Assembly (NCBI RefSeq): GCF_030013205.1
Contig: NZ_CP122648.1
Reading direction: 5' to 3' (one strand)
From: Escherichia coli
GTDB lineage: Bacteria; Pseudomonadota; Gammaproteobacteria; Enterobacterales; Enterobacteriaceae
DNA length: 64,000 nt
Shown here: in pieces, positions 2,500 through 11,077 of the stretch
Layout: every line of letters begins with the position of its first letter
Position numbering within the stretch: the stretch's first letter is position 1
Made by a program: the position numbers and the translations under genes
Notes under the pieces: generated by a model
The model's input: the letters and a program-made list of their open reading frames with translations, nothing else
Databases searched by the model: none
Told to the model about the DNA's origin: nothing

Positions 2500-3134
2500 T
2501 GTTTTGCCGCCTTGATGAGAGTGGTTTTCACCGGGAAATAATCCGCGCCGAGATACTGTTCCGACTGGCGAATTTGCCCTTCGCTGTCGATCCAGTAGCG
2601 GTTATGCCAGCGCGCCTGGTCGGTGGAGACTTCTTCGTCCAGCACGCGAACCGGGGTTTCATCGCTGCCGACTTTGACGGTATCGGTGCCATCCCATTTG
2701 AAGACTGAGCGTGCGGTGGCGTAGCGTACCTGCTGGTACTCGGTCCAGCCCATCGTGCGCGTCCATGTTGCACCATCAACAATTTGTGCGGGTTTAATCA
2801 GCGGGTCGGCGGCAAGGTTATTCACGTCAATCAGGTTGTCGCCGCCAAGCAAAGTCTTCACCAGACGACCATGTTGTGTGACGAGAGTGGCCTGATCCTG
2901 AGTGACCCATTTTTGTTGTCCGTCTTCAGCAAAGGCCAGCACCACAAACAATTGCGGCCCGCCATTAAGCTGCATGTACTGGCTGGCGTAGGGCATATTT
3001 TGAATATCATCGTCCGTCAGCTGTACGCCTGGCGTGCCGAACAGACTGTCCCACAGCGAATTGCCCAGCTCTTTAGTCGTGGCTGAACAGGCCTGTAATA
3101 GCAGGCAGATAAGAATGAGTGCAGGTCGCTTCAC
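2496..3134 (-). CDS. yjbF: YjbF lipoprotein
   Basis: ORF 2496-3164; lipobox LLQAC; likely GTG start giving MKRPALILICLLLQACS (start coordinate uncertain by about 10 codons). Confidence 0.7.
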   Translation of the reverse strand: MKRPALILICLLLQACSATTKELGNSLWDSLFGTPGVQLTDDDIQNMPYASQYMQLNGGPQLFVVLAFAEDGQQKWVTQDQATLVTQHGRLVKTLLGGDNLIDVNNLAADPLIKPAQIVDGATWTRTMGWTEYQQVRYATARSVFKWDGTDTVKVGSDETPVRVLDEEVSTDQARWHNRYWIDSEGQIRQSEQYLGADYFPVKTTLIKAAKQ

Positions 3135-7892: not shown

Positions 7893-8765
7893 TTAACGCC
7901 CCTTCTTTTTACGCCCCGGCGAGGTAAAACGCTTACCGTTGGACGCCGGGCGACCGCCTTTTTCCGCCGTTTTTTCCATCTTAACGACTGGACGTTTGAT
8001 GCCCGCCGTTTTCGGTTTGGCCTTCGTTTTAGGTTTTGCCTCGGAAGAGGAATTTTCGATGAGCTTAAAGAGGTCGATTAACTCATCGTCAGTTAAATCG
8101 CGCCACTCACCCAGCGGAATGCCGCTTAAGCTGACGTTCATAATGCGCGTACGTTCCAGCTTTTTCACTTCGTAACCAAAGTGCTCGCACATGCGCCGGA
8201 TCTGACGGTTCAGCCCCTGCACCAGGGTAATGCGGAAAACAAACGGCGCTTCTTTTTTGACTTTGCACTTTTTCGTCACCGTCCCGAGGATCGGCACCCC
8301 CGCCCCCATACCACGAATAAATTCATCGGTAATCGGTTTATCGACCGTCACCAGATACTCTTTCTCATGATCGTTACCCGCACGGAGGATCTTATTCACC
8401 AGATCGCCGTGATTGGTGAGGAAAATCAGCCCCTGGGAGTCTTTATCCAGGCGGCCAATCGGGAACACGCGTTTGCTGTGGTTAACGAAATCGACAATGT
8501 TATCGCGCTCGCCATCTTCGGTGGTGCTGACAATACCGACGGGCTTGTTCAGGGCGATAAGTACCAAATCTTCGGCTTCCCGAGGCTCAATCAACTGACC
8601 GTTTACTTTCACAACGTCGCCGGGTTTCACCTGATCGCCAATGGTGGCTCGCTTGCCATTAAGGAACACATTGCCTTGCTCGATATAGCGATCCGCTTCG
8701 CGGCGTGAGCAAATTCCGCTTTCGCTGATGTATTTATTTAAACGGACTGATGAGTCGGGCAGCAT
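7893..8765 (-). CDS. rluF: 23S rRNA pseudouridine synthase RluF
   Basis: 290-aa ORF with S4 domain N-terminus and RsuA/RluF-type catalytic motif ([13 protein letters not shown]). Confidence 0.9.
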
Positions 8766-9074
8766 AAATTCTCCTGTAAAACGCGGAATATACCGTACCT
8801 CTTAGCGGGGAAAAACAGGGTTATGCGGCAACGTCGAAATTAAATGTGATCTGCCACGCCTTTTATCACAAAAGTGTCTCCGGAAGTACGATGCAAATTT
8901 GCCTGGCAAAATAAGGATAATCAACATATTACGAATCGCTGCACACCTGTGCTGATGACTACTACGCAGAGAAACAAATGTGCAAGAGAAAGCGCTATTT
9001 CTCCCCATGCAAAGAGTGAAAAATCGCTTTGAAAGGCCCTCATGATGGGGTTATATCAGATCAAGCGGTGAGAA

Positions 9075-9100
9075 AGCGTATTTGCACAAATGTGCAGAAC
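9075..9100. promoter_or_regulatory. Inverted repeat TGCACA-AA-TGTGCA just upstream of sorC; candidate operator
   Basis: Palindrome at 9083-9096, 17 bp before the sorC ATG; related CAAATGTGCA motif at 8975-8984. Confidence 0.3.
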
Positions 9101-9112
9101 CAGGAGGCGGCA

Positions 9113-10060
9113 ATGGAAAACAGTGACGATATCCGTTTGATTGTGAAGATTGCCCAACTCTATTACGAACAGGATATGACGCAGGCGCAAATCGCGCGCG
9201 AACTGGGTATTTACCGCACCACCATCAGCCGCTTGCTTAAACGAGGCCGCGATCAGGGAATTGTCACCATCGCCATCAACTATGACTACAACGAAAATCT
9301 CTGGCTGGAGCAGCAACTGAAGCAAAAGTTTGGCCTGAAAGACGTTGTGGTGGTGTCGGGAAATGATGAGGATGAAGAGACTCAACTGGCGATGATGGGG
9401 TTACACGGCGCGCAACTGCTGGATCGCTTGCTGGAGCCTGGCGATATTGTCGGTTTTTCCTGGGGTCGCGCGGTGAGCGCACTGGTTGAAAACTTGCCGC
9501 AGGCGGGGCAATCGCGGCAGTTAATCTGCGTACCAATTATTGGCGGACCGTCCGGTAAACTCGAAAGCCGCTATCACGTAAACACATTAACCTACAGCGC
9601 GGCAGCGAAGCTGAAAGGGGAATCGCATCTCGCGGATTTTCCGGCTCTGCTGGATAACCCATTAATTCGTAATGGGATCATGCAGTCTCAGCACTTTAAA
9701 ACCATCTCTGCCTACTGGGATAATCTGGATGTCGCCCTGGTGGGAATTGGCTCACCGGCCATTCGCGACGGCGCTAACTGGCATGCGTTTTATGGTGGTG
9801 AAGAGAGTGACGACCTGAATGCCCGCCAGGTTGCTGGCGATATTTGCTCGCGCTTTTATGATATTCACGGCGCAATGGTTGAAACGAATATGAGCGAAAA
9901 AACACTCTCTATCGAAATGAATAAATTAAAGCAGGCGCGGTATTCCATTGGCATTGCCATGAGTGAAGAAAAATACAGCGGAATTGTTGGTGCACTGCGT
10001 GGAAAATATATTAATTGTCTGGTAACGAATAGCAGCACAGCTGAACTATTACTGAAATAA
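9113..10060 (+). CDS. sorC: SorC-family transcriptional regulator of the sorbose operon
   Basis: ORF 9029-10060; start set at MENSDDIRL preceded by AGGAGG; N-terminal HTH (MTQAQIARELGIYRTTISRLLKRGR) plus sugar-binding domain; 315 aa. Confidence 0.8.
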   Translation: MENSDDIRLIVKIAQLYYEQDMTQAQIARELGIYRTTISRLLKRGRDQGIVTIAINYDYNENLWLEQQLKQKFGLKDVVVVSGNDEDEETQLAMMGLHGAQLLDRLLEPGDIVGFSWGRAVSALVENLPQAGQSRQLICVPIIGGPSGKLESRYHVNTLTYSAAAKLKGESHLADFPALLDNPLIRNGIMQSQHFKTISAYWDNLDVALVGIGSPAIRDGANWHAFYGGEESDDLNARQVAGDICSRFYDIHGAMVETNMSEKTLSIEMNKLKQARYSIGIAMSEEKYSGIVGALRGKYINCLVTNSSTAELLLK

Positions 10061-10291: not shown

Positions 10292-10300
10292 CAGTTTTGG
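10292..10300. repeat. IS1 target-site duplication, left copy (cagttttgg)
   Basis: 9 bp identical to 11069-11077, immediately flanking the IS1 inverted repeats. Confidence 0.85.
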
Positions 10301-10355
10301 GGTGATGCTGCCAACTTACTGATTTAGTGTATGATGGTGTTTTTGAGGTGCTCCA

Positions 10356-10631
10356 GTGGCTTCTGTTTCTATCAGCTGTCCCTCCTGTTCAGCTACTGAC
10401 GGGGTGGTGCGTAACGGCAAAAGCACCGCCGGACATCAGCGCTATCTCTGCTCTCACTGCCGTAAAACATGGCAACTACAGTTCACTTACGCCGCCTCTC
10501 AGCCCGGTACGCACCAGAAAATCATTGATATGGCCATGAATGGCGTCGGATGTCGCGCCAGTGCACGCATTATTGGCGTTGGCCTCAACACGATTTTCCG
10601 CCACTTAAAAAACTCAGGCCGCAGTCGGTAA
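10356..10631 (+). CDS. insA: IS1 InsA (transposition inhibitor / N-terminal part of InsAB' transposase)
   Basis: 91-aa [46 protein letters not shown]... with zinc-finger cysteines. Confidence 0.95.
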
Positions 10632-11053
10632 CCTCGCGCATACAACCGGGCAGTGATGTGATTGTCTGCGCTGAAATGGACGAACAGTGGGGCTACGTCG
10701 GTGCTAAATCACGTCAGCGCTGGCTGTTTTACGCGTATGACAGGATGCGGAGGACGGTTGTGGCGCACGTCTTCGGTGAACGCACTCTGGCCACACTGGA
10801 GCGTCTTCTGAGCCTGCTGTCGGCCTTTGAGGTCGTGGTATGGATGACGGATGGCTGGCCGCTGTATGAATCACGCCTGAAGGGAAAGCTGCACGTTATC
10901 AGCAAGCGTTATACTCAGCGCATTGAGCGGCATAACCTGAATCTGAGACAACATCTGGCAAGGCTGGGACGGAAGTCACTGTCGTTCTCAAAATCGGTGG
11001 AGCTGCATGACAAGGTCACCGGGCATTATCTGAACATAAAACACTATCAGTAA
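10550..11053 (+). CDS. insB: IS1 InsB (catalytic part of the InsAB' transposase made by -1 frameshift at TTAAAAAACTC)
   Basis: 167-aa ORF in the -1 frame overlapping the insA 3' end; slippery A-run present near 10600. Confidence 0.9.
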
Positions 11054-11068
11054 GTTGGAGTCATTACC

Positions 11069-11077
11069 CAGTTTTGG
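11069..11077. repeat. IS1 target-site duplication, right copy (cagttttgg)
   Basis: Identical to 10292-10300. Confidence 0.85.

What the first reader, a model, noticed from the sequence alone, without database searches (positions are those of the whole stretch)
8975..9100. Repeated CAAATGTGCA motif and TGCACA-AA-TGTGCA palindrome in the sorC leader
Two copies of CAAATGTGCA lie about 100 bp apart upstream of sorC; the proximal copy is part of an inverted repeat only 17 bp upstream of the sorC ATG. SorC-type regulators typically autoregulate through operators in this position, so this is a candidate SorC operator pair.
Basis: inference. Interest (0 to 1): 0.25.

Follow-up and report, generated by a model that had tools for sequence, protein, structure and literature searches.

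The report
Predicted SorC operators of sorbose operon
The repeated motif is real and is very probably the DNA site where the sorbose regulator SorC binds to control its own operon: ordinary gene regulation, but this regulator's site is not described in any paper I could search.

Summary
CAAATGTGCA occurs only at 8975-8984 and 9087-9096 in the 64 kb window. TGCACA-AA-TGTGCA (9083-9096) ends 17 bp before the sorC ATG at 9113.

The SorC-operator reading is supported by comparative evidence. No binding experiment was possible.
- In 40 distinct Enterobacterales sorC upstream regions, the palindrome is the most conserved 14-mer (1.95 of 2 bits). The distal copy ranks third.
- Spacers between sites are nearly randomised (35-49% identity) but almost free of indels. 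Spacing is 31 bp and 112 bp in 36 of 40 regions. Kluyvera lost about one helical turn (11 bp).
- Four Bacillales SorC homologues keep the recognition helix GIYRTTISR and regulate non-sorbose genes. All four carry TTGCAC-AATT-GTGC-type dyads; 19 homologues with other helices have none.
- The 16-bp box TTGCA-N6-TGCA(A/G) has the geometry of the Bacillus subtilis DeoR operator, TTGAA-N6-TTCAA.

The best conserved promoter candidate puts the palindrome at about +20 to +33 and the distal sites at about -86 and -117. I infer repression at the leader site, helped by upstream sites through a SorC tetramer. It is a new member of a known kind, of modest interest.

The parts
9081..9096 (.). O3: the primary SorC box, TTTGCACAAATGTGCA. 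Its core is GCAC-AAAT-GTGC, or as a 16-mer TTGCA-CAAATG-TGCAg (9082-9097). It lies in the predicted leader at about +20 to +33, 16 nt before the ATG. In most other genera its last base is the first G of the GGAG ribosome-binding site.
   Evidence: It is the most conserved 14-mer of the intergenic region, at 1.95 bits. The 15-mer TTGCACAWATGTGCA occurs exactly once, at the same place, in 39 loci: 38 of the 39 orthologous loci plus the E. coli record L001. It is the only match with at most 1 mismatch to TTGCACNNNNGTGCAA in 64 kb.
8970..8985 (.). O2: the distal copy. It is a conserved right half-site, CAAATGTGCAA (8975-8985); the left half is degenerate in E. coli. It is a direct repeat of the 3' half of O3, 112 bp upstream, with its centre at about -86.5.
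   Evidence: The half-site scores 1.87 bits and is the third most conserved 14-mer. It is a full dyad, TTGCACAAACGTGCAA, in three Kluyvera species. The O2-O3 distance is 112 bp in 36 of 40 regions, 101 bp in Kluyvera and 113 bp in one Serratia.
8939..8954 (.). O1: a third SorC-box-like dyad, cTGCAC-ACCT-GTGCtg (core 8941-8952). It lies 31 bp upstream of O2, with its centre at about -117.5.
   Evidence: The arms GCAC/GTGC are conserved while the central 3-4 nt vary between genera. It is the fifth most conserved 14-mer. Core pairwise identity is 0.85, against 0.35 in the adjacent spacer. By sequence alone it has 3 mismatches to the 16-mer, which is not better than chance.
9029..9057 (+). Predicted sigma-70 promoter of the sor operon: -35 TTGAAA (9029-9034), 17 bp spacer, -10 TATATC (9052-9057). 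The inferred start is about 9064. It lies within conserved blocks G (9018-9034) and H (9046-9066).
   Evidence: A hexamer-weight scan of 40 orthologous regions gives a mean score of 5.2 at this column; the next unrelated column scores 1.8. The stricter consensus scan found no promoter because the -10 ends in C. There is no experimental start site.
9113..10060 (+). sorC, the first gene of the operon. It encodes a SorC-family regulator with a DeoR-type HTH domain and a sugar-binding domain.
   Evidence: Pfam Sugar-bind PF04198, E=2.7e-80, plus an N-terminal HTH. 89% identity to K. pneumoniae SorC 2W48, and alignment to B. subtilis DeoR 8R7Y at E=1e-39. The recognition helix GIYRTTISRLLKR is invariant in 40 orthologues.
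8919..8931 (+). A possible accessory element: AATCAACATATTA matches the IHF core consensus WATCAANNNNTTR. It lies between the far-upstream blocks and O1.
   Evidence: AATCAA and TTA are conserved in most of the 40 regions. As a pattern it is not rare: 4 matches in the window against 2.15 expected. Assignment to IHF rests on the consensus only.
8842..8879 (.). Far-upstream conserved blocks with no assigned owner. One is a CRP-like left half, AAATGTGATCT (8842-8852). The other is the dyad tCAC-AAAA-GTGt (8866-8877).
   Evidence: Conserved in all regions except Kluyvera, which lacks them. Whether they belong to the SorC system was not resolved.

Best explanation

Shown by comparison. The boxes are the strongest footprints of the control region. 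Their spacing is fixed. They track the SorC recognition helix across phyla. They have the 16-bp geometry of the B. subtilis DeoR operator, with one base pair changed per half-site (TTGAA to TTGCA).

Inferred mechanism.
- O3 is the high-affinity site. It lies about 20-33 bp downstream of the predicted transcription start and next to the ribosome-binding site.
- Without sorbose, a SorC dimer at O3 blocks transcription of sorC and the rest of the operon. This gives autoregulation.
- It is stabilised by the second dimer of the SorC tetramer bound upstream at O2/O1, which loops out the promoter over 112 or 143 bp.
- With inducer, the dimer-dimer contact is loosened, as proposed for CggR and SorC. 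O3 is released, and SorC remaining at O2/O1 (about -86 and -117) could supply the reported activator function.
For: Conservation. O3 scores 1.95 bits, the O2 half-site 1.87 and O1 1.30, against 0.73 for the background. They rank 1, 3 and 5 among 14-mers. Pairwise identity is 0.98, 0.92 and 0.85, against 0.35-0.49 in the spacers.

Spacing. O1-O2 is 31 bp and O2-O3 is 112 bp in 36 of 40 species. Kluyvera differs by 11 bp.

Link between regulator and motif. The DNA-binding domain is invariant in all 40 orthologues. Four Bacillales homologues at 43-48% identity have the identical helix GIYRTTISR and lie next to oxidoreductase and ribose-5-phosphate-isomerase-type genes, not sor genes. All four carry TTGCACAATTGTGC-type dyads within 250 bp upstream. 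None of 19 homologues with other helices match.

Family geometry. The DeoR operator ATTGAACAAAATTTCAAT makes base contacts in TTGAACA through two arginines (PMC11229326). Both arginines align with SorC R35 and R40.

Position. The best conserved promoter candidate places O3 in the leader. In the same family, the CggR operator lies at +32 to +77 of an operon whose first gene is cggR.

Biology. SorC is reported to be a repressor without L-sorbose and an activator with it (PMC12817954). It is a tetramer with two pairs of DNA-binding domains (PMC2943609).
Against: There is no binding data of any kind. The transcription start is only predicted, the -10 (TATATC) is poor, and the standard scan found no promoter. 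The family paradigm is two half-operators about two helical turns apart, and no partner site lies about 20 bp from O3. So either the tetramer model needs looping or O3 works alone. 112 bp is about 10.7 turns at 10.5 bp per turn, not an integral number. O1 is not distinguishable from chance by sequence alone. Other equally conserved blocks (H, A, O0, C, and the IHF-like block D) show that other factors also act here.
Confidence: 0.78

Rival explanations
1. The boxes are real protein-binding sites but belong to another regulator, for example a global factor such as CRP (half-site TGTGA), or a CytR-like or unknown protein. SorC would bind elsewhere in the region, for example at the invariant block GGTTATATCAGATCA.
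For: AAATGTG also begins the CRP-like block at 8842-8852. Several other blocks are as conserved as the boxes and have no owner. No experiment links SorC to any of them.
Against: The dyad is CAC-N4-GTG, the opposite orientation and a different spacing from CRP's GTGA-N6-TCAC. The same dyad follows the SorC recognition helix into Bacillales, next to unrelated target genes; a host-specific global factor would not explain that. The box matches DeoR-type geometry.
Confidence: 0.08
2. The proximal palindrome acts in the mRNA. A 7-bp hairpin (UUUGCAC-AAAU-GUGCAGA) just upstream of the ribosome-binding site would modulate translation or stability of the sorC message. The distal copy would be irrelevant.
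For: The minimum-energy fold of 9060-9135 contains this hairpin. In most genera its 3' arm runs into the GGAG ribosome-binding site.
Against: The fold is not unusual: z = -1.0, and 30 of 200 shuffles fold as well. There is no Rfam match. Both arms are invariant, so there is no covariation. The loop is as conserved as the stem. The same sequence recurs as O2 and O1 upstream of the predicted promoter, and O1 has conserved arms with a variable centre, the signature of a protein dyad. It could still be a secondary effect alongside the DNA role.
Confidence: 0.06
3. SorC binds only O3, as a simple leader roadblock. O2 and O1 serve the activating function independently, or bind another protein. There is no loop.
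For: O3 is far better than O1 or O2 as a sequence match. 112 bp is not an integral number of turns.
Against: Spacing from O1 through O3 is indel-free although the spacers are saturated, and the one large change is 11 bp. In the family, single half-operators bind poorly and tetramer avidity is needed (PMC11229326). This rival is a sub-variant of the best explanation and shares its core claim, that the boxes are SorC sites.
Confidence: 0.3
4. It is a chance repeat with no function.
For: From one sequence alone, a 10-11-mer repeat in about 350 bp is only marginally improbable.
Against: Near-invariance in 40 species with saturated spacers.
Confidence: 0.01

Closest known systems
[quoted passage not shown]
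   Same: The regulator has the same domain type; SorC aligns to DeoR 8R7Y at E=1e-39 and both base-contacting arginines are conserved. The dyad has the same 16-bp geometry: TTGAA-CAAAAT-TTCAA against TTGCA-CAAATG-TGCAg, 11 of 16 positions identical, differing symmetrically at one base pair per half-site. Both combine a palindrome with a direct repeat of one half (PMC11229326).
   Different: The DeoR operator is one compact 39-bp unit at -60 to -21, with its two halves about two turns apart. The sor boxes are 31 and 112 bp apart and flank the predicted promoter. deoR is not part of the operon it controls. DeoR is described only as a repressor.
Bacillus subtilis CggR operator of the gapA operon (SorC family, winged-helix subclass)
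   Same: The regulator is the first gene of the operon it represses. The operator lies downstream of the start site, at +32 to +77. A tetramer binds cooperatively, and inducer weakens the dimer-dimer bridge (PMC2943609, PMC11229326).
   Different: The DNA-binding domain type and the motif differ. The two half-operators are adjacent within 45 bp, and there are no distant upstream sites.
Loop-forming sugar operons of E. coli (gal OE/OI, ara O2/I1, lac O1/O3). This comparison is from my own knowledge.
   Same: One operator is upstream and one downstream of the promoter, about 110 bp apart (gal: 113 bp). AraC is also both repressor and activator, with a switch between looped and unlooped states.
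   Different: The regulator families are unrelated. Looping at sor is only inferred from the fixed spacing and the tetrameric state of SorC.
Tandem dyads next to SorC homologues in Bacillales and Chloroflexi (found here)
   Same: The half-site is the same, TGCAC/GTGCA. In Bacillales the recognition helix is identical.
   Different: There are two dyads 19-20 bp apart, overlapping or directly following a canonical promoter. In Chloroflexi the halves are in the opposite order (GTGCA-AT-TGCAC). The neighbouring genes are not sorbose genes.

Membership tests
Operator of a SorC-family (DeoR-type HTH subclass) regulator | The cognate regulator gene, with an HTH DNA-binding domain plus a NagB-like sugar-binding domain, lies adjacent | tested here: met
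   sorC starts 17 bp downstream. Pfam Sugar-bind E=2.7e-80 plus an N-terminal HTH. 2W48 at E=6e-184 and DeoR 8R7Y at E=1e-39.
Operator of a SorC-family (DeoR-type HTH subclass) regulator | A dyad-symmetric site with DeoR-like geometry (5-bp half-sites, 6-bp centre) | tested here: met
   TTGCA-N6-TGCA(A/G) against DeoR TTGAA-N6-TTCAA (sequence from PMC11229326; window sequence).
Operator of a SorC-family (DeoR-type HTH subclass) regulator | The motif co-varies or co-occurs with the recognition helix across homologues | tested here: met
   4 of 4 Bacillales homologues with helix GIYRTTISR carry the dyad; 0 of 19 homologues with other helices match the pattern. The domain is invariant in 40 orthologues, as is O3.
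Operator of a SorC-family (DeoR-type HTH subclass) regulator | Two half-operators about two helical turns apart, bound by one tetramer | tested here: not met
   No conserved partner lies about 20 bp from O3. O1-O2 is 31 bp and O2-O3 is 112 bp. The feature is met in the Bacillales and Chloroflexi homologues, at 19-20 bp.
Operator of a SorC-family (DeoR-type HTH subclass) regulator | Specific binding by the purified regulator, relieved or altered by the sugar effector | not testable with these tools
   This needs EMSA or footprinting. No such data were found in the held literature.
Autoregulatory leader operator (CggR-like placement) | The site lies between the transcription start and the start codon of the regulator gene that heads the operon | tested here: inconclusive
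   This holds relative to the best conserved promoter candidate, TTGAAA-17-TATATC, with a start near 9064. The start site is not mapped, and the consensus scan found no promoter.
DNA-loop repression (gal/ara/lac type) | Operators on both sides of the promoter with helical-phase-dependent cooperation | tested here: inconclusive
   Flanking placement and an indel-free 112-bp spacing, with an 11-bp change in Kluyvera, are consistent with it. Phase dependence and looping were not tested.
Structured cis-regulatory RNA in the 5' leader | A stable structure beyond background, with covariation or a known family match | tested here: not met
   z = -1.0. No Rfam hit at E<=1. The arms are invariant, so there is no covariation.

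The most novel reading that the evidence does not exclude
The enterobacterial sor control region is a fixed-geometry nucleoprotein switch that departs from the compact tandem operator of the SorC family. One SorC tetramer bridges the leader dyad O3 and the upstream O2/O1 composite over 112-143 bp, enclosing the promoter. An IHF-like bend site and far-upstream blocks assist. Sorbose converts the repression loop into an upstream activating complex, an AraC-like 'light switch' evolved in an unrelated regulator family. This would explain the repressor/activator duality of SorC reported in 1990.
Probability: 0.3. Interest if true: 0.5.

Novelty: new member of a known kind. Interest (0 to 1): 0.3.

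Why it matters
SorC gives its name to a large family of sugar-phosphate-sensing regulators, and it has had a crystal structure since 2009. Its DNA target is not described in any paper I could search. A 2010 paper states that operators in the family were known only for DeoR and CggR. A 2025 functional study of the E. coli sor operon contains no promoter or operator analysis. The boxes defined here give exact sequences for gel-shift, footprinting and co-crystallisation experiments. They also give a concrete layout, one leader dyad plus upstream sites at fixed spacing, for testing how one protein both represses and activates. The sor operon has been linked to fitness in high-risk E. coli lineages, so its control region has some practical interest. 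It remains a conventional operator prediction, not a new principle.

Tried and rejected
- A sigma-54 promoter using the TTGCA of O3. No GG lies at the required distance and that stretch is not conserved (inspection).
- O3's TTGCAC as a -35 hexamer. No -10 follows, and the mRNA would be leaderless.
- CRP as the owner of the boxes. The orientation and spacing are wrong. I also tested block G (9015-9030) as a class II CRP site; its GTGA is not conserved across genera.
- A standard consensus promoter and terminator scan found nothing in 8760-9130. I replaced it with a weight-matrix scan across orthologues.
- A second SorC site about 20 bp from O3, O2 or O1. None is conserved.
- Extra SorC boxes elsewhere in the window. 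Matches with 2-3 mismatches are at or below chance, 17 found against 38 expected.
- Literature. The 1990 Woehrl paper, the 2009 SorC structure paper, the 1984 Sprenger paper and the LsrR structure paper are not held. A search for the literal motif found only unrelated primers. I could not check whether curated regulon databases such as RegPrecise already list a SorC motif.
- Rfam scan of the leader: no hit.

Full report
**What is in the sequence.** The window is an Escherichia coli chromosome segment. rluF lies on the minus strand (7893-8765) and is followed divergently by the sorbose operon. The 8700-9200 stretch matches 5425 of 5426 complete E. coli genomes over its rluF part. Only 2863 match over the sor part, which begins near 8800. 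RefSeq annotation of an identical locus lists a 'sugar-binding transcriptional regulator', an SDR oxidoreductase, four mannose/sorbose-type PTS subunits and sorE. The regulator (9113-10060) is SorC. It is 89% identical to the crystallised Klebsiella pneumoniae SorC (2W48, E=6e-184), with residues 1-46 identical, and it has Pfam Sugar-bind plus an N-terminal HTH.

CAAATGTGCA occurs at 8975-8984 and 9087-9096 and nowhere else in 64 kb; 0.28 copies are expected. The repeat is really 11 bp, ACAAATGTGCA. TGCACA-AA-TGTGCA occupies 9083-9096, and its last base is 17 bp before the ATG.

**Comparative test.** One scan of a species-representative genome collection with the SorC protein returned 62 loci. 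Thirty-nine are Enterobacterales orthologues at 70-100% identity: Escherichia, Pseudocitrobacter, Citrobacter, Klebsiella, Raoultella, Enterobacter, Kluyvera, Mangrovibacter, Cedecea, Pantoea, Erwinia and Serratia. With the window this gives 40 distinct upstream regions, which I aligned.

**Conservation.** The region is a mosaic of near-invariant blocks and near-random spacers.
- The most conserved 14-mer of the 313-bp intergenic region is exactly the palindrome 9083-9096, at 1.95 of 2 bits. That is higher than the first ten sorC codons (1.62 bits).
- The distal copy ranks third (8974-8987, 1.67 bits; the half-site 8975-8985 scores 1.87 bits).
- The third site ranks fifth (8941-8954).
- Background outside the blocks is 0.73 bits.
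- Among 16 lineage representatives, pairwise identity is 0.98 (O3), 0.92 (O2 half-site) and 0.85 (O1 core). The spacers between them score 0.35-0.49.
- TTGCACAWATGTGCA occurs once, at the same position, in 38 of the 39 orthologous loci and in the E. coli record L001. The exception, a Serratia, has one mismatch.

**What the sites look like.**
- O3 is a full dyad with core GCAC-N4-GTGC. It becomes a perfect 14-bp palindrome where the centre is TA.
- O1 keeps the arms GCAC and GTGC while its central 3-4 nt differ between genera. This is the pattern expected of a protein-recognised dyad, not of an RNA stem.
- O2 is only a right half-site (CAAATGTGCAA) in most genera. In three Kluyvera species it is a full dyad, TTGCACAAACGTGCAA. 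There the left arm of O1 and everything upstream of it is missing.

**Spacing.** Core-to-core distances are O1-O2 31 bp, O2-O3 112 bp and O1-O3 143 bp in 36 of 40 regions. Kluyvera has O2-O3 at 101 bp, an 11-bp deletion of about one helical turn. One Serratia has 113 bp. The stretch from 8843 to 9096 is 254-255 bp in all but those four. Fixed spacing across saturated spacers argues for a fixed three-dimensional arrangement of bound proteins.

**Who binds.** Three lines point to SorC.
- The SorC DNA-binding domain is almost invariant in all 40 orthologues, and the recognition helix GIYRTTISRLLKR is identical in each.
- The scan also returned four Bacillales homologues (Terrilactibacillus, Pseudalkalibacillus, Bacillus, Paenibacillus; 43-48% identity) with the identical helix GIYRTTISR(L/M)LK. 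All four carry TTGCACAATTGTGC-type dyads within 250 bp upstream, each with a second dyad or half-site 19-20 bp away. None of the 19 more distant homologues with different helices match the dyad pattern. These Bacillales loci have no sorbose genes. Their neighbours are GFO/IDH/MocA oxidoreductases and a ribose-5-phosphate-isomerase-like protein. So the motif follows the DNA-binding domain, not the pathway.
- Read as a 16-mer, O3 is TTGCA-CAAATG-TGCAg. The left half-operator of B. subtilis DeoR, the structurally characterised member with the same HTH type, is TTGAA-CAAAAT-TTCAA. The geometry is the same and the difference is symmetric, one base pair per half-site. DeoR makes base contacts within TTGAACA through two arginines (PMC11229326). 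Both align with arginines in SorC, R35 and R40.

Chloroflexi homologues with another helix (LSRVKVYRLLKQAR) carry GTGCA-AT-TGCAC dyads 20 bp apart, directly after canonical TTGACA/TATnCT promoters. The half-site is therefore old in this branch of the family.

**Where the sites sit.** The simple consensus scan finds no promoter in 8760-9130. A hexamer-weight scan applied to all 40 regions gives one candidate that stands out in conservation: TTGAAA (9029-9034), 17 bp, TATATC (9052-9057). Its mean score is 5.2, and the next unrelated column scores 1.8. With a start near 9064:
- O3 spans about +20 to +33.
- The O2 centre is at about -86.5.
- The O1 centre is at about -117.5.

In most genera the ribosome-binding site GGAG begins with the last base of the 16-mer, and the start codon is probably two codons upstream of the E. 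coli ATG. These positions are predictions.

**Mechanism (inferred).** SorC is reported to repress without L-sorbose and to activate with it (Woehrl et al. 1990, as cited in PMC12817954 and PMC2943609). It crystallises as a tetramer with two pairs of DNA-binding domains. In the family, tetramers bind two half-operators cooperatively, single half-operators bind poorly, and effectors loosen the dimer-dimer bridge.

My best model has three steps:
- O3 is the high-affinity leader operator that blocks transcription of sorC and the operon. This gives autoregulation, as with CggR at +32 to +77.
- The other dimer of the tetramer holds O2/O1, looping out the promoter.
- Inducer breaks the bridge, and SorC at O2/O1 activates.

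The reciprocal arrangement is consistent with one upstream 'unit' partnering O3: O1 is full and O2 a half-site in most genera, while O2 is full and O1 a half-site in Kluyvera. The 11-bp spacing change fits this too.

Against the model: the family's two-turn tandem layout is absent here, 112 bp is about 10.7 turns, and nothing has been measured.

**Rivals.**
- RNA hairpin. A 7-bp hairpin can form from O3. But the fold is unremarkable (z = -1.0), there is no Rfam match and no covariation, and the motif recurs upstream of the predicted promoter.
- Another regulator. This fits poorly with the cross-phylum link to the SorC helix. The dyad has the wrong orientation and spacing for CRP.
- Chance. This is excluded by the conservation.

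**Literature.** No held paper contains the 12- or 14-mer. Searches on SorC with operator, regulon or promoter terms found only the DeoR/CggR structural papers and a 2025 E. coli sor study with no promoter or operator analysis. A 2010 paper states that operators in the family had been identified only for DeoR and CggR. The original sor papers and regulon databases could not be consulted.

**Verdict.** This is a well-supported prediction of the operator of a known regulator. It is a new member of a known kind and of modest interest. The unusual spacing and the dual function make it a good experimental target.

Noticed in passing
window 10301-11068: A 768-bp IS1 is inserted in sorD. Its left end, GGTGATGCTGCCAACTTACTGAT, starts at 10301. 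Its right end...AAGTTGGAGTCATTACC, finishes at 11068. It is flanked by a 9-bp target duplication, CAGTTTTGG (10292-10300 and 11069-11077). ORFs of 91 and 167 aa match insA/insB sizes. The operon is interrupted just after sorC, so this strain is probably sorbose-negative or polar-impaired.
   Followed up: partly
window 9046-9066: Block GGGGTTATATCAGATCAAG is nearly as conserved as the SorC palindrome; GTTATATCAGATCA (9050-9063) scores 1.85 bits, the second most conserved 14-mer. It contains the predicted -10 (TATATC) and an invariant GATC. This is more conservation than a -10 hexamer needs, so another factor or a start-site constraint may act here.
   Followed up: partly
window 8919-8931: AATCAACATATTA matches the IHF core consensus WATCAANNNNTTR and is conserved across most genera. 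It lies between the far-upstream blocks and O1. The pattern alone is not rare: 4 in the window against 2.15 expected.
   Followed up: partly
window 8842-8879: Two conserved far-upstream blocks. AAATGTGATCT has a perfect CRP left half, a weak right half and another invariant GATC. The dyad tCAC-AAAA-GTGt (8866-8877) resembles the SorC box but lacks its G/C positions. Both are absent in Kluyvera.
   Followed up: partly
window 8892-8902: The palindrome TGCAAATTTGC (GCAA-N2-TTGC across genera) looks like SorC half-sites in the opposite order, as in the Chloroflexi GTGCAATTGCAC dyads. Its owner is unknown.
   Followed up: no
L039-L042 about 20-180 bp upstream of position 3001; L048, L049, L051, L055, L056, L062, L063 within about 90 bp upstream: Distant SorC homologues carry two dyads or half-sites 19-20 bp apart, overlapping or just after canonical promoters. 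These are predicted operators for uncharacterised regulators of oxidoreductase and sugar-phosphate genes.
   Followed up: partly
window about 8800; L033-L035: The sor locus sits next to rluF in E. coli and in the other genera examined. It is present in 2863 of 5426 complete E. coli genomes, with the boundary near 8800. Kluyvera has a much shorter rluF-sorC intergenic region.
   Followed up: no
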